The notes: a model not told the origin generated them from the letters alone. Positions 3,531 to 49,766 are shown, counted from the first letter of the stretch. The stretch: DNA of 64,000 nt from an uncultured Candidatus Saccharibacteria bacterium (GCA_964642305.1 CAZXOE010000004.1:7894-71893); one strand, 5' to 3'. Numbers and translations are program-made.

Positions 3531-3657
3531 AAGTTTAAAATTAAATTCTATCAAAATGGGTTTCCCCAAGAACCTGTCTATTTTACCATATGGAGCGATT
3601 AGACGCCAGTCTTTTCTGTTGAGCTAATATAAGTGCGATAAACGATTACTCCATCAA

Positions 3658-3750
3658 TAAATGGTTAATTTTGGAGAGCAATGTTAGAGCGGGCGGTGTA
3701 AAATCCAGTTACCTAGAGTCATGCAGAGCCCATAAGGGTGGTGCGGCCGT
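3658..3750 (+). repeat. Copy A of a ~95-nt direct repeat flanking the peptidase gene
   Basis: Aligns to 4481-4578 with shared blocks ggttaatttt, gagagcaatg, tt.gagcg, taaaatc, tta.ctagag and cag.gccca.aag, roughly 70-75% identity. Confidence 0.6.
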
Positions 3751-3800
3751 TCCTAAGGGCTTCTGAGGCGTCAGTGGGCATATATGTTATTATTTAATAA

Positions 3801-4457
3801 ATGAAAAGAGCACTTATTACAGGTTCAGAAACTTTTGGAAAATATTTAGCTAACCCTACTAAATGGCTAGCGCTCTTTGCAGACGGTAAAATAATTGCGG
3901 ATTACGAGATTCACTCTTTAGTTTTTCCAGCCATTGTATTATTTCCCGAAGGAGCAGAGGACCCAGGAGAAGTAATAATGAAAAAAGCTCAAGAAATAAA
4001 CGTAGATGTAATTCTTTCTTTTGGTATGGCTTCAGAGGTAAAGGGATTTCGTTTGGAGCAAACGGGAATAAATTGGATTTATAATGAAAAGTACCTTTCC
4101 TCTTTTGAAAACAACAGACCAGTTGATATAACACAGCCAGAAAAAGAAAAGATCAAAACCGATCTATCACATTGGGACATAGAAAAAATGCAGGGACTTT
4201 TTACTAAAGCAAATATTCCTTTACAATCAGAAATTTCTGATGACGCAGGTCAATATGCTTGTAATGGTTGGATTTACAGAACTTTGCTTGCAATGAGAAA
4301 ACAAAAACTTAACATTCCTTATTTGTTTGTTCATTGTTCATGCACAGAAGAAGCGGTAGAGCTTATTCCAGATTTTGATAGAAAAAATAGACTACTTATT
4401 AAAAAGGAAGACACGCTGAAAGCCTTGGAAATTATTTTACAGTCATGTAAGAGTTAG
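3801..4457 (+). CDS. Pyroglutamyl-peptidase I-like (peptidase C15 family)
   Basis: N-terminal ALITGSETFG (compare Pcp VLVTGFEPFG), DAGQYACNGW (Pcp catalytic Cys region SAGTFVCN) and a downstream HCS. Confidence 0.65.
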   Translation: MKRALITGSETFGKYLANPTKWLALFADGKIIADYEIHSLVFPAIVLFPEGAEDPGEVIMKKAQEINVDVILSFGMASEVKGFRLEQTGINWIYNEKYLSSFENNRPVDITQPEKEKIKTDLSHWDIEKMQGLFTKANIPLQSEISDDAGQYACNGWIYRTLLAMRKQKLNIPYLFVHCSCTEEAVELIPDFDRKNRLLIKKEDTLKALEIILQSCKS

Positions 4458-4480
4458 AGATTATACCAAGGGGTAGTCCT

Positions 4481-4578
4481 AAATTGGTTAATTTTTGAGA
4501 GCAATGGTTGAGCGAGAAACATAAAATCTCTTTACTTAGAGCCTCACAGAAGCCCACAAGTGCATTGTGGGGCGGGTT
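4481..4578 (+). repeat. Copy B of the ~95-nt direct repeat
   Basis: See copy A. Copy B carries an internal hairpin cccacaa-gtgca-ttgtggg. Confidence 0.6.
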
Positions 4579-4671
4579 TTTGGAAAAAGTTACCTGACAC
4601 CCATACTCATTATGTGAATGACACATGAGAGAATATTATTAGAACACACAAAATTCAAAAGAATGGTGGCT

Positions 4672-4706
4672 GTCCCCATTTCCCGTCCCCATTTCCCCAT
4701 TTCCCT
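4672..4706. repeat. Short tandem repeat (gtccccatttccc x2 plus a partial unit)
   Basis: gtccccatttcccgtccccatttccccatttccc read directly from the sequence. Confidence 0.7.
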
Positions 4707-4735
4707 TCTAAACAGTGGTGTTTTTAATTAGCATT

Positions 4736-6187
4736 TTATGCAGATAAGATTTGTTGTAATCTCTCATTGAGAAATATGTCAAAGGTGTCTTCAGAATCTT
4801 TTCTTCCCTCAATCATTTTAACAATATCATTATCTCCCAAGGGCAGAACAATACATCTATGTCTCAAATAAATTTCTTTTGATTTTTTAATATCATCTTC
4901 GGTCACACCATCTCTTTGTATGAGAAAAATAAAATCTCTACCATTTTTAATGGTATAAGCGAGACTCTGATTAAATTCCTTATTGCTAACATTGGTTAAT
5001 CCATAATTTTTTGCCTCGATAATGATAAGTCCAGCTTTGATTTGTTGGTTTCTTAGGACATTGAAAAATGCTGTTGTTGAAGCGTTTAAGAAATTAAGGT
5101 CATATCTATATATCTCTCCATGAGAAGTAGTTTCAATTTTCCCTCTCAATAAATTTTCTCCATATATAACCTTAAATATCTTGAGAAGAAGCAGGCTATA
5201 TTCTCGTGACGATTTACTTCCTGTTGGAAGCGCCTTAATCTCATTAATATATGTTTGCCACACAATTTTTTGCTTACGAGGTCTTCTTTTTGAATCAAAT
5301 TGGTGCGGATTTTCAGCATACCCCTTAACCAACTCAGGTCGTTCTTGCGCAATAATTCTTGCTGCCAAGTGTACTGATCCATACTTACTTTCAAGACTTT
5401 TCTCAATGTCTTTGATTTTAACTTTTGGTTCTTTCCCAATGGTACTCAGTATCTTTTCCCTAGAAAGTTCCTCGTTCTGTAATACATACTTAAGACACCC
5501 ATTATAAAACTCACTCGTAGACAGAATGGGCATCTTCCTTGATATGTGTCTAGGTACCAACAGGCGATACCCACCATTTTCATAGTGTGGTAAATCTACT
5601 TTTATCGCAGGTACCCACTTTCTTGTATTAAAATCATACCCATTAGGAAGACTAACAGAAATTGTTTTAAGGTTAAAAGTCTTTACTTGCTCTTTTGTGT
5701 ACTCAATTAAATTAAAAAGGGCGAAATTCCCAACCAAGTCTGATAATAAATCAGGTCCAATACCCTCAATTTGGATAGAGGTTTTTGCTAGTGCCTCAAT
5801 CCCAAACTCTGCTATCTCGGTGTTGTCAAAAATTGCTTCCTTAATAAGTCCCGCCCTTTCAAGGTGCGTACCTTTGCCTTTAACGCCCTCTTTGCAATAA
5901 CCAAGACCAATTGCTTGAACTTCAGGAAAGTTGAGAGCAATGAGCAGTTGCTCCTCTGAGATTTTATTAGATCTATAATCGACTAAAAGTTGATTAAAAT
6001 AATTAAAAATATGTGCTTGAACCTCATGCCATTCTGGGTCCCTTGATTCGTACATTAAATATAAGTCTAAATACGCACGTACGTCACCCTTAGGATCTGG
6101 GGTAATAAAATCCAATTCAAATGGTTTATAATTACTGCACAGTTCATCTAGAGATATTTTTTCTTCTTGGGTTGGAGGTGTATTCAT
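4736..6187 (-). CDS. Hypothetical 483-aa protein with C-terminal PD-(D/E)xK-like nuclease motif (candidate restriction/defence nuclease)
   Basis: C-terminus ...YRYDLNFLN...GLIIIEAKNYG fits the D...ExK pattern. No P-loop. Sits 5 nt downstream of the GIY-YIG gene in an AT-rich island next to R-M genes. Confidence 0.45.
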   Translation of the reverse strand: MNTPPTQEEKISLDELCSNYKPFELDFITPDPKGDVRAYLDLYLMYESRDPEWHEVQAHIFNYFNQLLVDYRSNKISEEQLLIALNFPEVQAIGLGYCKEGVKGKGTHLERAGLIKEAIFDNTEIAEFGIEALAKTSIQIEGIGPDLLSDLVGNFALFNLIEYTKEQVKTFNLKTISVSLPNGYDFNTRKWVPAIKVDLPHYENGGYRLLVPRHISRKMPILSTSEFYNGCLKYVLQNEELSREKILSTIGKEPKVKIKDIEKSLESKYGSVHLAARIIAQERPELVKGYAENPHQFDSKRRPRKQKIVWQTYINEIKALPTGSKSSREYSLLLLKIFKVIYGENLLRGKIETTSHGEIYRYDLNFLNASTTAFFNVLRNQQIKAGLIIIEAKNYGLTNVSNKEFNQSLAYTIKNGRDFIFLIQRDGVTEDDIKKSKEIYLRHRCIVLPLGDNDIVKMIEGRKDSEDTFDIFLNERLQQILSA

Positions 6188-6192
6188 AAACT

Positions 6193-6549
6193 TTATTCAA
6201 AATTAATGTCAATTGCTCCAACGTCTGGAATTCGCTCAACGCAGGTTGGGCTATATTTTTCATAAAGTGCTACTTCTGCGCCGTCGCGATTATTTTGTGT
6301 TGATATTGCGCATGCTCTGAAAAAACATCTGTAATTTTTAAGAAGTTTATTGCAACAAGAATTTACCTCAGTGTCGAGCAAGTGTTGCCCTAAACGCTCC
6401 TTTAAGTTTTCTGCTTGTCCAACATAGTGAACATAGTATTTATTGTTGCTTGAATCAAGGTGTGATATGCGGTATACGCCAGCTGCTTCGTTTATTTTGT
6501 TTACCTCTTCAGAGTTAAGAGGGTTTAATTTCGTCCAGTTTAGTTCCAT
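6193..6549 (-). CDS. GIY-YIG nuclease domain protein
   Basis: GVYRI...(10 aa)...YYVHYVGQA...LKERLGQH gives the GIY, YIG and conserved Arg spacing of the GIY-YIG fold. 118 aa. Confidence 0.7.
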   Translation of the reverse strand: MELNWTKLNPLNSEEVNKINEAAGVYRISHLDSSNNKYYVHYVGQAENLKERLGQHLLDTEVNSCCNKLLKNYRCFFRACAISTQNNRDGAEVALYEKYSPTCVERIPDVGAIDINFE

Positions 6550-6627
6550 GTTTTTTAAAATTATGATTAATAATACTGTTGATAACTACTACTTGCATAC
6601 TTTCTATTTATTTTCTATAATAGCACC
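6550..6627. promoter_or_regulatory. Divergent promoter region between the GIY-YIG operon and the LexA-methyltransferase gene
   Basis: 78-bp AT-rich spacer containing tactgttgataactactac (a CTGT half-site at 6574-6592) and a tataat immediately before the 6628 start. Confidence 0.4.
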
Positions 6628-8493
6628 ATGATAACAAAAAAGCAAACACAAGTCCTTGATTTCATAAAAACCTACAGAGCAAAAAACAGTTACTCCCCAT
6701 CTCTTGAAGAAATAAAGAAAAAGTTTAAGTTTGCTTCTGTTTCAACTGCGCATTACTACATTTGCAAGTTGCAGAATGCAGGTTTTTTGAATAAAGAGCA
6801 TAACCAACCGCGTGCTGTTTCGACAGTTGAAGCCAAACAGACAATAGAAATTCCTATTTTGGGTGCTATTGCGGCTGGTCAGCCGATTGAGGCAATAGAA
6901 ATCCCAGACGAAATGATAACGATCACAAGAGACGAGATTGGGAGACAAGGCAAGCACTATGCTTTACGTGTTCAGGGCAGTAGTATGATTGATGAGGGCA
7001 TTTTCGATGGTGATATTGTGGTTATACGAAAACAAGAAGTAGCAGAAAACGGGCAGACTGTTGTCGCTGTGATTGACGACAACGAAGCGACTCTCAAAAA
7101 ATTGTATCGTGAAAATGGAAGGTTTAGATTGCAACCCGCAAACCCGACCTTATTCCCAATCTATCGAGACGAGGTAGAGGTGAGGGGTGTAGTTGTTAAA
7201 ATTATTCGCAATCTTGAATCACAACTGGATCAAGGGCAATCGAGGAATGAAAAGTATGTGCGGAAAATAGACTACTCGTGGGATTATAGAGGAGAAAAAA
7301 CAAAAGCACACACACACGGAATTCATACCTATCCGGCAATGTTTATTCCTCAAGTGGGACGAAGATTGTTAGAAACATACAGCAAAGAAGGTGACACTAT
7401 CTGCGATATTTTTTGTGGCTCTGGCTCAGCATTAGTTGAAAGCAGATTGATAGGGAGAAATGCCTACGGCATCGATCTTAATCCTCTGGCTATTTTCCTT
7501 GCACATGCGAAAACAACCCCAATTAATCCGCAAAAACTAACAAAAGAGTATCTCGCATTGCTTAACAGGGTTGAAAAAATAAAGGATAGCGAAGTACAAA
7601 GACCAGATTTTAAAAATATTGATTTTTGGTTTAAAGATATAGCAATCGTTAAGCTTACCAAGTTGAAAAAAGCTATACGAGAAATAAAAGACGACGCAAT
7701 TCAGAATTTTTTGATGGTTGCCTTTAGCGAGACGGTTCGTTATTCCTCAAACACAAAAACTGGCGAATTTAAATTGGTACGTGTTAAAGGCGACAAATTG
7801 GAAAAACACAATCCTGATGTTATTGGTATCTTTCGCAAACACGCGGAGAAAAACATTGCGGGGATGACTGATTTTTACAAAGATGCAAAAAAAGGTGTGT
7901 GGACGAAAATAATCTATGGTGATTCATCAAAAGATAACGGTATTAAAGCAAGTTCCATTGATTGCATCATTACTTCTCCGCCGTATGGCGATAGTCGAAC
8001 AACAGTTGCTTACGGGCAATTTTCTCGACTCTCGGCTCAATGGATTGATATGTTTGAAAACCCAAATGACGCCTCTGGACTAGACAATGAGCTTCTTGGT
8101 GGCAGGGCAACCAAGCATTTAGCTCATACGCTTTCATCTGAGTATCTCAAAGAATCATTGGAGAAAATTGCGAAACAGGACGAAGCAAGGGCGAAGGACG
8201 TACTGAGTTTCAATATTGGTTTGAATGAATGTTTGAAACAAGCGCACAGGATACTTAAGCCAGGAAAATATTTTTGTCTTGTTATTGGGAATAGGTTAGT
8301 TAAGCAGGTGAGAATCCCCACCGACTTTATTATTGCCGAGTTAGCAGAAAAAATTGGATTTACTTGTGAAGATATTATCGTACGAAATATTCCAGGGAAA
8401 AGAATGCCTATAAAAAATTCTCCAACAAATATTGTCGGGGCTCTTGAAGAAACGATGAACAAAGAGAGTATTGTGGTGTTAAGGAAAAACTAA
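6628..8493 (+). CDS. Fusion protein: complete LexA repressor (wHTH + S24 peptidase) joined to an N4/N6 DNA methyltransferase (probable m4C MTase of the adjacent R-M system)
   Basis: aa 1-195 align with LexA throughout: QTQVLDFI, IPILGAIAAGQP (Ala-Gly cleavage site), RVQGSSM (catalytic Ser), GDIVVI, GQTVVAVIDDNEATLKKL (catalytic Lys), GVVVKIIRN. aa ~230-621 carry HTYPAMFIPQ + DIFCGSGS (motif X/I, AdoMet binding) and IDCIITSPPYGD (motif IV, SPPY). One uninterrupted 621-codon ORF. Confidence 0.85.
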   Translation: MITKKQTQVLDFIKTYRAKNSYSPSLEEIKKKFKFASVSTAHYYICKLQNAGFLNKEHNQPRAVSTVEAKQTIEIPILGAIAAGQPIEAIEIPDEMITITRDEIGRQGKHYALRVQGSSMIDEGIFDGDIVVIRKQEVAENGQTVVAVIDDNEATLKKLYRENGRFRLQPANPTLFPIYRDEVEVRGVVVKIIRNLESQLDQGQSRNEKYVRKIDYSWDYRGEKTKAHTHGIHTYPAMFIPQVGRRLLETYSKEGDTICDIFCGSGSALVESRLIGRNAYGIDLNPLAIFLAHAKTTPINPQKLTKEYLALLNRVEKIKDSEVQRPDFKNIDFWFKDIAIVKLTKLKKAIREIKDDAIQNFLMVAFSETVRYSSNTKTGEFKLVRVKGDKLEKHNPDVIGIFRKHAEKNIAGMTDFYKDAKKGVWTKIIYGDSSKDNGIKASSIDCIITSPPYGDSRTTVAYGQFSRLSAQWIDMFENPNDASGLDNELLGGRATKHLAHTLSSEYLKESLEKIAKQDEARAKDVLSFNIGLNECLKQAHRILKPGKYFCLVIGNRLVKQVRIPTDFIIAELAEKIGFTCEDIIVRNIPGKRMPIKNSPTNIVGALEETMNKESIVVLRKN

Positions 8494-9191
8494 ATTAGCC
8501 CAACTTTTGTATCAAAGCAGTTGTAAAGTTGCTTTATCTTTACTCTAAAGCCGGTGCCATGATTACGAACGGAACCATCTGGACGATAGTACATTCTGAA
8601 ATCTACAACAAGATAATCTTTTCTTACCATATTTTTGAAGTGCTCAAAATCAAAGCCTTCTAAAAAATATGCTTCGTTGAAATGAAAATGTTCAACGCCC
8701 TTTATCTCTTTGCAGTCCGCTAACACATACACGAGAGCCGGAAGTTTTGCTTCAAACTTTTGTTTTAAGTCTTCCATATCCCAGTAGATGTTTAGTCGTT
8801 TACCCTTGCCAACAACTCGGACCTTGCCTTTCTCTACTTTAAGTTTTAATCCTTGATTATTGTACCGTTTACACGAAAGAGTGCTGTGTAATTCCTTGGC
8901 ACGTCCGTTATCCCTTTTTGAGTACCCAAAACCATCAAGCAGTGTTCTGTCTCGATCGCCACCTTTTGGTTGTGGCTCCAATGTAAAGAGCGTCAGCATA
9001 GAGACCGCATTTTTTCGGTACGCCTTAAGTTCAGCTATTTCACCAATATCTGGAAGTGGAATATTATTTTCTTTTATTCCCAGTAAGTCTTCAAGTGTTT
9101 TTCCAATACCCGTATCGCCCTTGCGGTGAGTTTTAATAAACCCTAGAGCTTTTATACTTTTAAGTTTTTTCTTGAGTTCTTGGAGTGTCAT
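8490..9191 (-). CDS. Type II restriction endonuclease, MutH/MvaI-BcnI-like
   Basis: N-terminal KGDTGIGKTLEDLLGIKENNIPLPDIGEIAELKA matches the MutH-fold REase signature (KG..G..LE.LLG...N...PD...ELK). Start MTLQELK at 9191 sits 1 nt after the C-gene stop. 3' end overlaps the MTase stop by 4 nt, so the genes are convergent. Confidence 0.7.
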   Translation of the reverse strand: MTLQELKKKLKSIKALGFIKTHRKGDTGIGKTLEDLLGIKENNIPLPDIGEIAELKAYRKNAVSMLTLFTLEPQPKGGDRDRTLLDGFGYSKRDNGRAKELHSTLSCKRYNNQGLKLKVEKGKVRVVGKGKRLNIYWDMEDLKQKFEAKLPALVYVLADCKEIKGVEHFHFNEAYFLEGFDFEHFKNMVRKDYLVVDFRMYYRPDGSVRNHGTGFRVKIKQLYNCFDTKVGLI

Positions 9192-9192
9192 A

Positions 9193-9429
9193 TTATTTAA
9201 TGAAAAATAAAACGTCTTTTTTATAGATATTTGCAAACTTTTTAATCTCGACGACATCAAGTCGTCTTTCACCAGACTCAATTTTTGATATATAGGATTG
9301 TGGCTTACCGAGTTTATCGGCAACCTCTTGCTGTGCAAGCCCAGCCTCAATCCGCGCCGTTTTTAAGCGTTCTATGATTTCCTTATAGTCTTTTGCGTAA
9401 ACGGATCTGTTCATAAGTATTTCAATCAT
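9193..9429 (-). CDS. Controller (C) protein, XRE-family HTH regulator of the R-M system
   Basis: 78 aa. LAQQEVADKLGKPQSYISKIESGERRLDVVEI is a Cro/C1-type HTH. Start MIEILMNR has an AAGGA SD 5 nt upstream. The stop abuts the REase start, the classic C-R arrangement. Confidence 0.75.
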   Translation of the reverse strand: MIEILMNRSVYAKDYKEIIERLKTARIEAGLAQQEVADKLGKPQSYISKIESGERRLDVVEIKKFANIYKKDVLFFIK

Positions 9430-9441
9430 ATATCCTTTTAT

Positions 9442-9469
9442 GGTATAATCCCAAAATGGGATTATACCC
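9442..9469. promoter_or_regulatory. Candidate C-box operator: 28-bp dyad ggtataatccca-aaat-gggattatacc just upstream of the C gene
   Basis: Perfect 12-bp arms containing TATAAT on both strands, 12 nt upstream of the C start codon. Confidence 0.55.
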
Positions 9470-9638
9470 AAACCAGCCCTCGCCACCATCGCCAATACTT
9501 TTCATTAAGCCCACGTCCAAGACGCGCTTCCGGCTTTCGATTCTGATTTTTGCATCTCAAAAATCATGTCGCAAGATTTCCACAACAAAGTTGTGTGAAA
9601 TTTAGGACCCGACGCAAGGCGCGCAGACGTCTTGCTCT

Positions 9639-9687
9639 ACCCGCACAATTTTAAAGCCCCTTTCGGGGCTCAAAATTGTGCGGGTAC
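9639..9687. repeat. Large compound hairpin (13-bp outer stem cccgcacaatttt/aaaattgtgcggg, inner agcccc-tttc-ggggct)
   Basis: Read directly. No flanking T-run on either strand. Confidence 0.7.
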
Positions 9688-9841
9688 CGGGACTCTTCGC
9701 TATCTCACTCGGAGCTAAAGCTCCTCTTTAGAAACCCACGGTTTCTAACACTCACTTCGTTCGCTGTTTTCCTCCACGGGAAAACAGGTGTTTTCCCGAC
9801 CCCTTTCCCGTTCGATTCTCGTCCCATCACTAGCAGACAAA

Positions 9842-9876
9842 AGAAAAACACTCGCAAGGAGTGTTTTTCTTTTGTC
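9842..9876. terminator. Bidirectional intrinsic terminator (12-bp stem agaaaaacactc/gagtgtttttct) next to the tRNA-Gly 3' end
   Basis: Perfect stem with loop gcaagg and T-runs on both strands. Confidence 0.7.
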
Positions 9877-9878
9877 TG

Positions 9879-9949
9879 TGCGGGTAGCGAGAATCGAACT
9901 CGCGTCTCAACCTTGGGAAGGTCGCATCATACCACTAAACTATACCCGC
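9879..9949 (-). tRNA. tRNA-Gly (anticodon CCC)
   Basis: Reverse complement GCGGGTATAGTTTAGTGGTATGATGCGACCTTCCCAAGGTTGAGACGCGAGTTCGATTCTCGCTACCCGCA. Anticodon stem CGACC/GGTTG, loop TTCCCAA. Closely resembles E. coli tRNA-Gly. Confidence 0.85.
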
Positions 9950-17893: not shown

Positions 17894-18058
17894 ATTCTTT
17901 TACTTATTGCTTAATTGCTTAATTTCATTGTAAGTGACCTGTTTTCCTCGCCCTCTCACCTCGGCTAAAACCAAGCAGTCAAGCAAGCACTGAGTGAAAA
18001 CTCTTACTTAATAAGGGTACCATGAGAAGGCAAAAAGCACAATATTAGGAAATAAAAC

Positions 18059-18067
18059 TGTGGATAA
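18059..18067. promoter_or_regulatory. DnaA-box-like 9-mer (tgtggataa = TTATCCACA) inside a 17-nt motif repeated at 49695-49711
   Basis: aactgtggataactttt is identical at both sites. Confidence 0.4.
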
Positions 18068-18104
18068 CTTTTATATATGGTAACCCTATGTAAATCGAGC
18101 AAAA

Positions 18105-49481: not shown

Positions 49482-49766
49482 TTTTTTATGTGCTGTTTCA
49501 AAATCTACTTAGTAAATCTTAAAACAATGTATGCAAATTATTCTACAGCAATGTTCGACCTGATAAGAAAATTAATTTTTTTATCACGTACAATTGCTGG
49601 ATCATCTTTGTGTAAAATTTCTTTCACACGCTGTACAGTGATCTACTAATATTATCTCGCATAAAAAAAACATTCGCAAGAGATTTTGAAATTTAACTGT
49701 GGATAACTTTTTTTTCTTTTTTACAAAGTAAAATTATTTTTTTATTTATTTTTAAGAAATTTATTT

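What the first reader, a model, noticed from the sequence alone, without database searches (positions are those of the whole stretch)
8490..9495. C-protein plus MutH/MvaI-BcnI-like endonuclease form the R-M partner, with a TATAAT-containing dyad as candidate C-box
The 78-aa XRE HTH protein ends 1 nt before the REase ATG, the classic controller-REase translational coupling. The REase N-terminus carries the MutH-fold signature KGDTGIGKTLEDLLGIKENN...PDIGEIAELK. The 28-bp dyad ggtataatccca-aaat-gggattatacc lies 12 nt upstream of the C start and embeds -10-like hexamers in both arms. It is a plausible autoregulatory operator. With the LexA-methyltransferase fusion this would give two layers of control: C-protein on the REase and LexA on the methyltransferase.
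Basis: partly seen in the sequence, partly recalled or inferred. Interest (0 to 1): 0.6.

Follow-up and report, generated by a model that had tools for sequence, protein, structure and literature searches.

The report
Controller-protein switch of a restriction-modification cassette
This is a small regulator gene, its two-part DNA operator and a MvaI/BcnI-type restriction enzyme gene, forming one end of a 2.9-kb restriction-modification cassette; the same regulator/operator end and a LexA-type repressor end recur in hundreds of Patescibacteria (CPR) genomes around swapped enzyme genes.

Summary
The 8490-9191(-) product is a MvaI/BcnI-family endonuclease (Pfam E 1.7e-53). An XRE HTH gene ends 1 nt before it, and a perfect 12+3+12 dyad lies at 9442-9468.

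Three corrections:
- The regulator is 73 aa and starts at 9414, not 9429.
- The dyad is 27 bp, not 28.
- Only its inner 15 bp (ATCCCA-TTT-TGGGAT, "OL") are conserved, and the TATAAT in the arms is not.

In 78 related loci OL is followed 1 nt later by an imperfect copy (OR), a TAnnnT -10 hexamer, then 10 nt to the ATG. This is the canonical double C-box with a near-leaderless layout, but with a new sequence. This non-coding stretch is more conserved than the coding sequence.

The same C gene and box precede nucleases of at least 7 unrelated families. In 59 of 64 loci a LexA-like repressor sits at the other end, either fused to the methyltransferase (as here) or encoded just upstream of it. Its cleavage and catalytic residues are intact. 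Direct-repeat operators in its promoter co-vary with the LexA DNA-binding-domain type.

Cassettes often lie just downstream of tRNA genes.

Verdict: a real C-controlled Type II R-M system, a new variant of a known kind. The dual C/LexA chassis is the interesting part. All regulation is inferred, not shown.

The parts
9878..9949 (-). tRNA-Gly(CCC), same orientation as the C gene, 3' end 463 nt upstream of the C start
   Evidence: ARAGORN. In 25 of 56 related loci a same-strand tRNA ends 51-745 nt upstream of C.
9677..9695 (-). Partial copy of the tRNA-Gly 3' end (GAGTCCCGGTACCCGCACA), resembling an att scar
   Evidence: 16 of 19 match to the tRNA 3' end, against 0.01 expected. Analogous partial tRNA copies occur in L031, L037, L049 and L051.
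9442..9468 (.).
   Evidence: the repeat finder I3. The outer 6 nt of the left arm are shared only with the closest relatives (L001, L002, L015).
9448..9462 (-). C-box distal operator OL: ATCCCA-TTT-TGGGAT, centre 9455
   Evidence: About 2 bits per position in 75 unique sequences. All 78 OL-type sites found in 543 kb lie upstream of C.
9432..9446 (-). C-box proximal operator OR: ATACCA-TAA-AAGGAT (family consensus ATACCA-CAA-TAGGAT), centre 9439, 16 bp from the OL centre
   Evidence: Alignment and information content. Imperfect copy of OL, with 5 of 6 and 4 of 6 half-site matches here.
9449..9454 (-). -35-like TTGGGA inside the right half of OL
   Evidence: Promoter scan: TTGGGA-18-TATGAT.
9425..9430 (-). 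-10 hexamer TATGAT (family TAtnaT). 10 nt separate it from ATG 9414, which predicts a TSS near 9418 and a near-leaderless mRNA.
   Evidence: Hexamer positions 1, 2 and 6 are conserved and position 4 is free.
9193..9414 (-). C (controller) gene, 73 aa XRE/HTH_3, stop TAA 9195-9193
   Evidence: Pfam HTH_3. 911 homologues at about 80-93% identity among the best 120 listed, nearly all 73 aa. PADLOC Control_protein E 5e-6. C.BclI E 6e-6.
8490..9191 (-). Type II restriction endonuclease, MvaI/BcnI family, 233 aa, PD-ExK residues D48/E54/K56
8422..8438 (-). Terminator-like hairpin plus T-run 52 nt after the REase stop, lying antisense inside the methyltransferase 3' end
   Evidence: Consensus scan only.
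6628..8493 (+). LexA-methyltransferase fusion, 621 aa. LexA wHTH plus S24 peptidase occupy aa 1-~200 (AG cleavage site at 83-84, GSSM at 117-120, K within LKKL at 156-159). The N4/N6 methyltransferase occupies aa ~215-620 (SPPY at 450). Convergent with the REase gene, with a 4-nt 3' overlap.
   Evidence: TIGR00498 171.8 bits against a cut-off of 110.95. Pfam. PADLOC MTase_II E 7e-131 over aa 215-620. Residue check.
6593..6621 (+). lexA-M promoter: -35 TTGCAT (6593-6598), 17-nt spacer, -10 TATAAT (6616-6621), then 6 nt to ATG 6628 (leaderless). Direct repeats TTTCTAT at 6601-6607 and 6612-6618 are the candidate LexA operator.
   Evidence: The repeat sequence co-varies with the LexA DNA-binding-domain cluster.
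6577..6586 (+). TGTTGATAAC (family TGTGGATAAC, the reverse complement of the DnaA-box consensus TTATCCACA). Marks the cassette border at the LexA end.
   Evidence: Homology with L001, L027 and L009 ends at 6573-6577.

Best explanation
Window 6577-9468 is a self-contained Type II restriction-modification cassette of about 2.9 kb with two regulators.

The C/R end. On the minus strand a 73-aa controller (C) protein gene and a MvaI/BcnI-family endonuclease gene form one operon, with 1 nt between the C stop and the REase start. C dimers most likely bind the perfect distal palindrome OL (ATCCCA-TTT-TGGGAT). They then bind, probably cooperatively, the imperfect proximal copy OR 16 bp downstream. Both boxes lie on the -35/spacer region of a TTGGGA-18-TATGAT promoter whose mRNA begins about 4 nt before the ATG. 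C therefore gates its own synthesis and that of the endonuclease. Full occupancy shuts the operon off. By analogy with AhdI, PvuII and Esp1396I, occupancy of OL alone may stimulate it.

The M end. On the plus strand the protective methyltransferase is made as a fusion to a complete LexA. This fusion most likely represses its own strong leaderless promoter through two TTTCTAT repeats 11 bp apart. On DNA damage it would cleave itself at Ala-Gly, raising methylation when the chromosome is being cut.

What is shown: domain identities, gene order, and conservation and co-variation of the sites.

What is inferred: DNA binding, the sign of C regulation, the transcription start sites, RecA-dependent cleavage and the recognition sequence.
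For: Protein identities:
- REase.
- C is HTH_3. Its nearest named relatives are R-M control proteins: C.BclI 6e-6, C.AhdI 1.6e-3, C.Esp1396I 2e-3, PADLOC Control_protein 5e-6.

C as a controller:
- 319 species genomes carry a C relative, and 80 loci were read.
- In 73 loci a nuclease gene follows C, in 61 of the 73 within -4 to +4 nt.
- The nucleases come from at least 7 unrelated Pfam families: Endonuclease_7/His-Me, MvaI_BcnI, TaqI, HindVP, Alw26IDE, HNH and DUF7687.

The operator:
- Positions -7 to +31 around OL carry 1.5-2 bits. This exceeds the coding sequence and falls to below 0.6 bits about 11 nt upstream.
- The layout matches the published canonical one: OL perfect, OR imperfect, centres 16 bp apart, 17 nt from OR to the ATG. 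The canonical C-box is 35 bp with a stronger distal operator, 17-18 nt to the ATG and a leaderless mRNA (PMC2632904; AhdI, PMC2275141).
- OL-type sites occur only upstream of C (78 of 78; unique in the window).

The LexA layer:
- Present in 59 of 64 loci: 35 fused, 22 separate, 2 N-terminally cut.
- G85, S119 and K156 (E. coli numbering) are conserved in 57 of 57. A84 is Ala in 49 and Cys in 8.
- Promoter repeats co-vary with the DNA-binding-domain cluster.
Against: - No experimental datum exists for any member of this family.
- With the predicted TSS, OL is centred near -37 and OR near -21. This is about 7 bp closer to the start than in AhdI (-44 and -29). OL covers the -35 hexamer, a geometry that fits repression better than class-II activation.
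- C is no closer in sequence to characterised C proteins than to the phage 434 repressor. Its nearest solved relatives (3eus, 3f6w, 2ef8) have no assigned function.
- The C-box lacks the GACT/AGTC cores and the GTG spacer of C.PvuII-type boxes.
- The high nucleotide identity of recently exchanged cassettes inflates apparent conservation, although the non-coding stretch still exceeds the coding one.
- The candidate LexA operators are direct repeats, not the usual palindromic SOS box.
Confidence: 0.78

Rival explanations
1. C is only an autorepressor, as Mollicutes HsdC is reported to be, and does not act as an activator-repressor switch. The TTGGGA-18-TATGAT promoter is constitutive, and C bound at OL and OR simply occludes it and caps REase levels. 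Protection of a new host would rest on the strong leaderless lexA-M promoter and on inefficient leaderless translation of C-R.
For: OL overlaps the -35 hexamer and OR the spacer. Predicted centres are -37 and -21, against -44 and -29 in AhdI. The core promoter matches consensus reasonably well (9 of 12). A C-type regulator acting as a repressor has been described: HsdC's site overlaps the -10 box (PMC5282649).
Against: The perfect-distal, imperfect-proximal two-site layout and the 17-nt distance to the ATG are the hallmarks of activator-repressor C switches. The TSS is only predicted. A start at the A of the ATG would put OL at -41, a class-II position. In PvuII the distance from box to -10 tolerates shifts of ±4 bp (PMC2175313).
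Confidence: 0.35
2. The dyad is primarily the recombination or border site of a mobile cassette, like an att or attC site, and not a transcriptional operator.
For: Homology between cassettes at different genomic sites ends at or just outside the dyad (9455-9504) and, at the other end, at TGTGGATAAC (6573-6581). Cassettes lie downstream of tRNA genes with partial tRNA repeats. In L037 the cassette is flanked by 99% identical 132-bp direct repeats.
Against: The L037 repeats lie about 60 nt outside the C-box on the C side and about 180 nt beyond the lexA start on the other, so the C-box is not the crossover point. The conserved block continues through OR and the -10 up to the ATG with fixed spacing (41 nt in 57 of 79), as a promoter-operator would. 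No recombinase gene is linked. The site is paired with an invariant recognition helix in C. The two roles are not mutually exclusive.
Confidence: 0.08
3. The LexA gene is the host's housekeeping SOS repressor. R-M genes merely accumulate next to it at a hot spot, so there is no dedicated second layer of control.
For: The LexA part scores above the TIGR00498 equivalog cut-off. It is 58-63% identical to stand-alone 196-aa LexA proteins of Patescibacteria.
Against: In 35 loci LexA is translationally fused to methyltransferases of different families. Flanks outside C and outside the lexA promoter are unrelated between loci. The two stand-alone 196-aa LexAs that were looked up are also directly followed by a methyltransferase and a convergent gene. 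Operators co-vary with the LexA type inside the cassette promoter.
Confidence: 0.1
4. The TATAAT hexamers in the two arms are a pair of divergent -10 elements. In this reading the dyad is a bidirectional promoter core and not a protein-binding site.
For: TATAAT occurs in both arms in the window.
Against: In most loci the left arm reads TGTATCC, TATATCC or AATAATCC. The positions corresponding to the hexamer carry only 0.5-0.9 bits. Nothing is encoded on the plus strand beyond the dyad.
Confidence: 0.04

Closest known systems
Controller (C) proteins and C-boxes of Type II R-M systems (C.AhdI, C.PvuII, C.Esp1396I, C.BclI)
   Same: A small single-domain XRE HTH protein. Its gene lies directly upstream of, and is coupled to, the REase gene, with a convergent M gene. 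There are two adjacent 15-bp palindromic operators with 3-nt AT-rich centres, the distal one perfect and the proximal one degenerate, with centres 15-16 bp apart. OR ends 17 nt before the ATG, and no Shine-Dalgarno sequence is present (leaderless).
   Different: The operator sequence is ATCCCA-N3-TGGGAT, not GACT-N3-AGTC with a GTG/TGTA inter-operator spacer. Here 1 nt separates the boxes. The boxes sit about 7 bp closer to the predicted start. Sequence similarity to characterised C proteins is only marginal (E 6e-6 to 0.2). One C/C-box module serves many unrelated R-M enzyme pairs within a single bacterial lineage.
MvaI (CC^WGG) and BcnI (CC^SGG) restriction endonucleases with their N4-cytosine methyltransferases
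   Same: PF15515 fold family with a MutH-like N-terminal motif and PD...ExK residues. The partner methyltransferase carries an SPPY motif, which from general knowledge is typical of m4C enzymes.
   Different: Similarity to R.MvaI is distant (phmmer E 1.1e-20). The specificity is unknown; CCWGG is only mildly under-represented (0.69). To my knowledge neither MvaI nor BcnI has been described with a C protein or with a LexA-fused methyltransferase.
Methyltransferases with an N-terminal regulatory HTH (M.SsoII, M.EcoRII, M.MspI, M.ScrFIA type)
   Same: A DNA-binding domain fused to the N-terminus of the methyltransferase, with a presumed operator in the R-M promoter region, gives autogenous control of M.
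   Different: Here the regulatory part is a complete LexA (winged helix plus a self-cleaving S24 domain) of about 200 aa. This adds a potential DNA-damage input. It is interchangeable with a separate lexA gene placed upstream of M.
LexA / SOS repressors, including direct-repeat LexA motifs such as that titled for Verrucomicrobia (cited in PMC7739468)
   Same: LexA_DNA_bind plus Peptidase_S24. The Ala(Cys)-Gly site and the Ser/Lys dyad are conserved. The gene is probably autoregulated.
   Different: It is dedicated to, or physically fused with, an R-M methyltransferase. Candidate operators are 7-nt direct repeats 11 bp apart between -35 and -10, and they differ between LexA subtypes.
HsdC, the lineage-specific C-protein subfamily of Mollicutes (PMC5282649)
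   Same: A lineage-restricted C-protein subfamily in reduced-genome bacteria, with its own new binding motif, serving different R-M types. Fusions to methylases occur.
   Different: HsdC binds direct GTGTTA repeats overlapping the -10 and acts as a repressor. The family here has a palindromic double box.

Membership tests
R-M controller (C) proteins | Small (about 70-100 aa) single-domain XRE/HTH_3 protein | tested here: met
   73 aa; HTH_3 E 2.4e-14; family alignment A1.
R-M controller (C) proteins | Gene immediately upstream of and co-oriented with the REase gene, usually overlapping or adjacent | tested here: met
   1-nt gap here. In 61 of 73 loci the gap is -4 to +4 nt. The downstream genes are nucleases of at least 7 families.
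R-M controller (C) proteins | C-box: two adjacent palindromic operators upstream of C, with the distal one closer to consensus | tested here: met
   OL is perfect and OR imperfect, with centres 16 bp apart; conserved in 78 loci. Architecture as described in PMC2632904.
R-M controller (C) proteins | C.PvuII-type box sequence (GACT/AGTC cores, conserved GTG/TGTA between operators) | tested here: not met
   The cores are ATCCCA/TGGGAT and a single T separates the boxes. This is a new motif, not one of the box types named in the text I read. The motif logos themselves were not available.
R-M controller (C) proteins | Short fixed distance from box to ATG (17-18 nt) and a leaderless mRNA | tested here: inconclusive
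   17 nt from OR to the ATG. The -10 hexamer ends 10 nt before the ATG and there is no SD. No TSS data.
R-M controller (C) proteins | Sequence homology to characterised C proteins | tested here: inconclusive
   C.BclI 6e-6, C.AhdI 1.6e-3, C.Esp1396I 2e-3, C.Csp231I 0.21, but the 434 repressor scores 2e-4. PADLOC Control_protein 5e-6.
R-M controller (C) proteins | Binds the C-box and activates and/or represses the CR operon | not testable with these tools
   Needs EMSA, footprinting, or reporter or in vitro transcription assays.
MvaI/BcnI restriction endonucleases (PF15515) | Profile match over the whole domain | tested here: met
   E 1.7e-53, profile positions 2-225 of 227. R.MvaI 1.1e-20 and R.BcnI 1.5e-13.
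MvaI/BcnI restriction endonucleases (PF15515) | PD-(D/E)XK catalytic residues in the MutH-like N-terminal region | tested here: met
   P47-D48...E54-L-K56 aligns with the PD...EIK of R.MvaI. The catalytic role is taken from knowledge of the family.
MvaI/BcnI restriction endonucleases (PF15515) | Recognition of CCWGG or CCSGG, with matching m4C methylation | tested here: inconclusive
   CCWGG obs/exp 0.69 and CCSGG 0.89 in the window. The methyltransferase has SPPY. There is no methylome.
LexA (S24) repressors | LexA winged-helix DNA-binding domain plus S24 peptidase domain | tested here: met
   TIGR00498 171.8 bits against a cut-off of 110.95. PF01726 and PF00717.
LexA (S24) repressors | Ala-Gly cleavage site and Ser/Lys catalytic dyad | tested here: met
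   G85, S119 and K156 in 57 of 57. A84 is Ala in 49 and Cys in 8. All four canonical residues (A84, G85, S119, K156) are present in 34 of 34 fusions aligned from the related loci, and in the window copy.
LexA (S24) repressors | Palindromic SOS box in its own promoter | tested here: not met
   There are 7-nt direct repeats 11 bp apart, which co-vary with the DNA-binding-domain cluster. From the title of a paper cited in PMC7739468 and my own recollection, a direct-repeat LexA motif has been described in Verrucomicrobia.
LexA (S24) repressors | RecA*-stimulated self-cleavage | not testable with these tools
   Needs a biochemical assay.
Methyltransferases with N-terminal autoregulatory DNA-binding domain (M.SsoII type) | DNA-binding domain fused N-terminally to an active methyltransferase domain | tested here: met
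   A continuous 621-aa ORF with LexA at aa 1-~200 and the methyltransferase at aa 215-620. 35 fusions with different methyltransferase families. The fold of the DNA-binding domain differs from that of M.SsoII.

The most novel reading that the evidence does not exclude
Patescibacteria (CPR) carry a lineage-wide, integrase-less R-M 'chassis' that is exchanged between genomes and dropped downstream of tRNA genes. Its two conserved ends are regulatory modules.

One end is a new-type C-protein/C-box switch that can drive any nuclease. The other is a self-cleaving LexA, fused to or preceding any methyltransferase. That LexA makes methylation DNA-damage-inducible, so that self-restriction breaks feed back through RecA to raise protection.

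A perfect DnaA-box motif (TGTGGATAA) upstream of the lexA-M promoter would add a host-independent input.
Probability: 0.4. Interest if true: 0.75.

Novelty: new variant of a known kind. Interest (0 to 1): 0.55.

Why it matters
C-protein control of restriction enzymes is textbook, so the core finding is a new member with a new operator sequence. What goes beyond that is the modular design. One highly conserved C/C-box module (listed homologues about 73-95% identical) and one LexA module bracket interchangeable nuclease and methyltransferase genes in at least 319 species-level genomes of a lineage whose gene regulation is almost unstudied.

If the LexA moiety is cleaved on DNA damage, this would be a built-in autoimmunity sensor for R-M systems, in which methylation rises when the chromosome is cut. 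I found no description of such a circuit in the searchable literature.

The data also give concrete, testable cis-elements for CPR bacteria: a σ70-like -35/-10 geometry, leaderless starts, C operators, and subtype-specific LexA direct repeats. They also show that R-M cassettes there behave as discrete tRNA-proximal islets.

Tried and rejected
- **78-aa ORF starting at 9429.** Rejected. Homologues are 73 aa and the extension is not conserved. That ATG lies inside the conserved -10 hexamer.
- **AAGGA at 9433-9437 as a Shine-Dalgarno sequence.** Rejected. It is the right half-site of OR (family TAGGAT).
- **TATAAT in the arms as a promoter.** Rejected as not conserved.
- **A second C operator at the M promoter, as in Esp1396I.** None found in the window at up to 3 mismatches nor in 543 kb of related loci.
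- **TGTGGATAAC as a C half-site** (it resembles TGGGAT). Rejected because the motif is also upstream of lexA in C-less LexA-M-R systems L081-L086. It is the same across LexA subtypes, so it is probably not the LexA operator either. The DnaA box remains a hypothesis.
- **The C-box containing the R-M recognition site.** Rejected. The same box serves unrelated enzymes and contains no CCWGG.
- **Known RNA between the tRNA and the C-box.** Rfam found only tRNAs and one 16S rRNA.
- **Phage origin.** No close C homologue on viral contigs; the best is 53% identity over part of the protein.
- **Literature.** Searches for LexA-linked R-M regulation or LexA-methyltransferase fusions found nothing relevant. 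The one paper on the Patescibacteria SOS network (Environ Microbiol 2017, PMID 28618189) is not held, so I could not check whether it mentions this linkage.
- **An attR-like tRNA copy beyond the LexA end in the window.** None found.

Full report
**1. What is at the coordinates**

On the minus strand an XRE-type ORF ends with TAA at 9195-9193. One T follows, then the ATG (9191) of a 233-aa ORF that runs to 8490.

The 233-aa product matches Pfam MvaI_BcnI over the whole profile (E 1.7e-53). It matches the solved enzymes R.MvaI (E 1.1e-20) and R.BcnI (E 1.5e-13).

The small ORF is an HTH_3 protein (E 2.4e-14).

The inverted repeat is exact: arms 9442-9453 and 9457-9468, with a 3-nt spacer, giving 27 bp in total.

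The convergent plus-strand ORF 6628-8493 overlaps the REase 3' end by 4 nt. It is a complete LexA fused to an N4/N6 DNA methyltransferase:
- TIGR00498 scores 171.8 bits against a cut-off of 110.95, and LexA_DNA_bind and Peptidase_S24 are both present.
- PADLOC MTase_II gives E 7e-131 over aa 215-620.
- An SPPY motif lies at aa 450.

**2. The true C gene**

A database search found 911 relatives. The 120 best listed are about 78-100% identical (the top hit being the window's own 78-aa ORF), almost all from Patescibacteria, and almost all 73 aa. In an alignment of 26 of them the conserved protein starts at the Met encoded at 9414. The five extra residues of the 78-aa reading are not conserved. 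The C gene is therefore 9193-9414.

**3. Comparative set**

Scanning one genome per species found relatives in 319 genomes, and 80 loci (L001-L080) were retrieved.

Aligning the DNA upstream of C shows a block of about 50 nt that is nearly invariant, while everything further upstream is unrelated between loci.

I use the first T of TTTGGGAT (window 9455) as position 0. Positions -7 to +31 carry mostly 1.5-2.0 bits in 75 non-identical sequences. This is more than the coding sequence that follows. Information falls below 0.6 bits from about position -11 upstream.

**4. Anatomy of the block**

- OL is ATCCCA-TTT-TGGGAT (window 9462-9448), a perfect palindrome.
- One base follows, then OR, ATACCA-CAA-TAGGAT (window ATACCA-TAA-AAGGAT, 9446-9432). 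This is an imperfect copy, with its centre 16 bp from that of OL.
- Next comes a hexamer that reads TATCAT, TATGAT, TACAAT, TATACT or TATTAT. Positions 1, 2 and 6 are conserved and position 4 is free, which is the signature of a -10 element. In the window it is TATGAT at 9430-9425.
- Ten nucleotides without a Shine-Dalgarno sequence follow, then the ATG. The distance from position 0 to the ATG is 41 nt in 57 of 79 loci.

The simple promoter scan independently reports TTGGGA-18-TATGAT at 9454-9425.

The predicted start is therefore about 9418. The mRNA is near-leaderless, OR ends 17 nt before the ATG, and the OL and OR centres lie near -37 and -21.

The outer GGTATAAT extension is shared only with the closest relatives. 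Elsewhere it reads TGTATCC, TATATCC or AATAATCC, so the TATAAT hexamers are not a conserved promoter.

The AAGGA that looks like a ribosome-binding site is the right half of OR. The ATG at 9429 lies inside the -10.

A degenerate OL pattern occurs 78 times in the 543 kb of loci, and every occurrence is directly upstream of C. In the window OL is unique at up to 3 mismatches.

**5. Comparison with published C-boxes**

Sorokin et al. describe the C.PvuII-like sites as follows (PMC2632904):
- They are 35 bp long and consist of two copies of a palindromic operator.
- The distal copy is closer to consensus.
- A sharp maximum of 17-18 nt separates the site from the start codon.
- The mRNAs are leaderless.

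In AhdI the mRNA is leaderless, the promoter is TGGACT-18-TGTAAT, and the two sites are centred at -44 and -29 (PMC2275141). In PvuII the -35 overlaps the inter-operator spacer and half-box 2A, and OR mediates repression (PMC2175313).

The present element has the same architecture, but it differs in three ways:
- The half-sites are ATCCCA/TGGGAT, not GACT/AGTC.
- There is no GTG spacer.
- The position is about 7 bp closer to the predicted start, so OL covers the -35.

That geometry leaves open whether C at OL activates or only represses. I keep the repressor-only model as a serious rival. HsdC of Mollicutes is a precedent (PMC5282649).

In sequence, C is a distinct XRE subfamily:
- Its nearest solved relatives are proteins of unknown function (3eus, 3f6w, 2ef8).
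- C.BclI scores 6e-6, C.AhdI 1.6e-3 and C.Esp1396I 2e-3, no closer than the 434 repressor.
- PADLOC Control_protein models score 5e-6 to 3e-4.

**6. One regulator, many enzymes**

In 73 loci a plus-strand ORF follows C, and in 61 of these the gap is -4 to +4 nt (14 are ATGA overlaps, 25 have a 1-nt gap as here).

These ORFs belong to unrelated nuclease families:
- Endonuclease_7/His-Me finger (12)
- MvaI_BcnI (9)
- TaqI (8)
- HindVP (3)
- Alw26IDE (2)
- HNH and DUF7687 (1 each)
- many with no Pfam match

The convergent genes are methyltransferases of the N6_N4, C5, D12 and N6_Mtase/Eco57I/TaqI_C types.

The association of this HTH protein with restriction genes is therefore independent of enzyme family. 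That is the behaviour expected of a controller, not of an enzyme-specific partner.

L006, L007, L035 and L021 carry the same LexA-methyltransferase (90-94% aa identity) and the same C as the window. Their MvaI/BcnI-family REase is only 36-39% identical. This shows module exchange inside cassettes.

**7. The LexA end**

Of 64 loci with enough sequence, 59 have a LexA-like ORF on the opposite strand at the far end of the cassette. It is fused to the methyltransferase N-terminus in 35, a separate gene of about 207 aa directly upstream of the methyltransferase in 22, and N-terminally cut in 2.

All 57 alignable domains keep Gly85, Ser119 and Lys156 (E. coli numbering). Position 84 is Ala in 49 and Cys in 8. 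They therefore look competent for self-cleavage.

Two stand-alone 196-aa Patescibacteria LexAs, picked from the homologue list, are also followed by a methyltransferase and a convergent gene, without a C gene.

The lexA(-M) promoter is conserved. In the window it reads TGTTGATAAC (6577-6586), then -35 TTGCAT (6593-6598), a 17-nt spacer, -10 TATAAT (6616-6621), and 6 nt to ATG 6628.

Between -35 and -10 lie two 7-nt direct repeats 11 bp apart, and their sequence changes with the LexA DNA-binding-domain cluster:
- TTTCTAT in the cluster of 32 that includes the window
- TTTAGGT in a cluster of 12
- TCTGTCA in a cluster of 4 (9 bp apart in this cluster)
- TTTGAAA in a cluster of 2
- CTTTCGGGT and ATTTTCG in single loci

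This co-variation is the best available evidence that these repeats are the LexA operators and that LexA autoregulates the methyltransferase.

By contrast, TGTGGATAA does not vary with LexA type. It is the reverse complement of the DnaA-box consensus. It occurs 44 times in 543 kb against about 4 expected, with at least 32 of those in lexA promoters. It also precedes lexA in C-less systems. Two exact ACTGTGGATAACTTTT copies lie in intergenic regions elsewhere in the window. It is therefore probably a site for a host factor, and DnaA is my guess, which is untested.

**8. Borders and location**

BLASTN of the window against loci with the same enzyme pair gives homology from 6573-6577 to 9455-9504 only. 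The cassette therefore runs from the TGTGGATAAC motif to the C-box and is about 2.9 kb.

It lies in a low-GC stretch (0.33-0.39 against about 0.45) between tRNA-Arg and tRNA-Gly. tRNA-Gly (9878-9949, same strand as C) ends 463 nt upstream of C, and a partial copy of its 3' end lies at 9677-9695.

In 25 of 56 loci with at least 400 nt of upstream sequence, a same-strand tRNA of one of 11 different specificities ends 51-745 nt upstream of C. My rough estimate of the chance expectation is about 2%. Several of these loci show partial tRNA 3' repeats.

In L037 the cassette is flanked by 99% identical 132-bp direct repeats. It is one of three islets separated by partial-tRNA repeats.

No integrase lies inside the cassette. 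Many contigs break 50-400 nt upstream of C, consistent with repeats or strain variation there. No close C homologue is on viral contigs.

**9. Mechanism proposed**

Shown: the gene identities, the order and coupling of the genes, and the conservation, symmetry and spacing of OL, OR, the -10 and the ATG. Also shown are the intact LexA catalytic residues and cleavage site, the co-varying repeats in the lexA-M promoter, and the cassette borders.

Inferred:
- After entry into a cell, the lexA-M promoter fires unrepressed and the genome is methylated.
- LexA-methyltransferase then represses its own promoter.
- The CR operon is read from a promoter overlapped by OL and OR, and its leaderless mRNA is translated poorly.
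- C accumulates, binds OL and then OR, and sets the level of REase, whose translation is coupled to that of C.
- If restriction outruns methylation, breaks activate RecA and LexA cleaves. The DNA-binding domain separates from the S24-methyltransferase part, and methyltransferase synthesis rises.
- The recognition site may be CCWGG. This is only a hint: MvaI is the closer relative, and CCWGG obs/exp is 0.69 against 0.89 for CCSGG.

**10. Novelty**

The core of the finding is a C-controlled Type II R-M system, which is a known kind. New here are:
- the C-box sequence and the C subfamily;
- the use of one C module with many enzyme families across a whole lineage;
- the systematic pairing with a LexA that is fused to or precedes the methyltransferase.

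Full-text searches found no description of LexA-linked R-M control or LexA-methyltransferase fusions. The one paper on the Patescibacteria SOS network could not be read, so prior mention cannot be excluded.

I rate it a new variant of a known kind, of moderate interest.

Noticed in passing
window 6577-6586; also 18056-18071 and 49695-49710; lexA promoters of L001-L086: TGTGGATAAC, the reverse complement of the DnaA-box consensus TTATCCACA, sits just upstream of the -35 of nearly all lexA(-M) promoters regardless of LexA subtype. It marks the cassette border. Two exact ACTGTGGATAACTTTT copies lie in host intergenic regions of the window, one of them next to a very AT-rich stretch between murB and secA.
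   Followed up: partly
window 9677-9949; L031, L037, L049, L051 upstream of C; L037 4806-4937 / 7636-7767: Cassettes lie 51-745 nt downstream of same-strand tRNA genes in 25 of 56 loci, with partial copies of the tRNA 3' end. In L037 the cassette is one of three islets separated by such repeats and is flanked by 99% identical 132-bp direct repeats. No integrase is linked.
   Followed up: partly
window 4736-6187 (-) and 6193-6549 (-): The neighbouring 483-aa protein matches the candidate defence family PDC-M36A (PADLOC E 1.2e-24). A 118-aa GIY-YIG protein is transcribed divergently from lexA-M. GIY-YIG homologues sit at the same position next to different cassettes in L008, L074 and L075. The whole 3600-9400 stretch has low GC, like a defence islet.
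   Followed up: partly
L006, L007, L035, L021 versus window 8493-9036: These loci have the same LexA-methyltransferase (90-94% aa) and the same C gene, but the body of the MvaI/BcnI-family REase is only 36-39% identical. Nucleotide homology resumes in the first ~50 codons of R. This looks like replacement of the R gene within a cassette.
   Followed up: partly
L081-L086: Stand-alone 196-aa Patescibacteria LexA genes are followed by an 839-aa C5+N6 methyltransferase and a convergent 390-400-aa gene, without a C gene. The LexA-R-M linkage therefore extends beyond the C-containing cassettes.
   Followed up: partly
L014 1665-5001: Here the cassette sits directly after 16S rRNA, tRNA-Ile and tRNA-Ala, inside what would normally be an rRNA operon.
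   Followed up: no
whole window: GCSGC (obs/exp 0.39), CTWAG (0.53) and GCWGC (0.54) are more strongly avoided than CCWGG (0.69). This hints at past or present pressure from other restriction systems.
   Followed up: no
window 8422-8438 (-) and 9110-9129 (+): Terminator-like hairpins with T-runs lie antisense inside the partner gene: one for the CR transcript inside the methyltransferase 3' end, and one for the M transcript inside the REase 5' end. The convergent transcripts may therefore overlap over the whole REase gene. These are consensus matches only.
   Followed up: no
L080, L034, L058, L012, L032, L076: There are exceptions to the chassis. L080 has the C gene but no C-box. L012, L032, L034, L058 and L076 lack a LexA-like gene, and L076 still has TTATCCACA upstream of its methyltransferase.
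   Followed up: no
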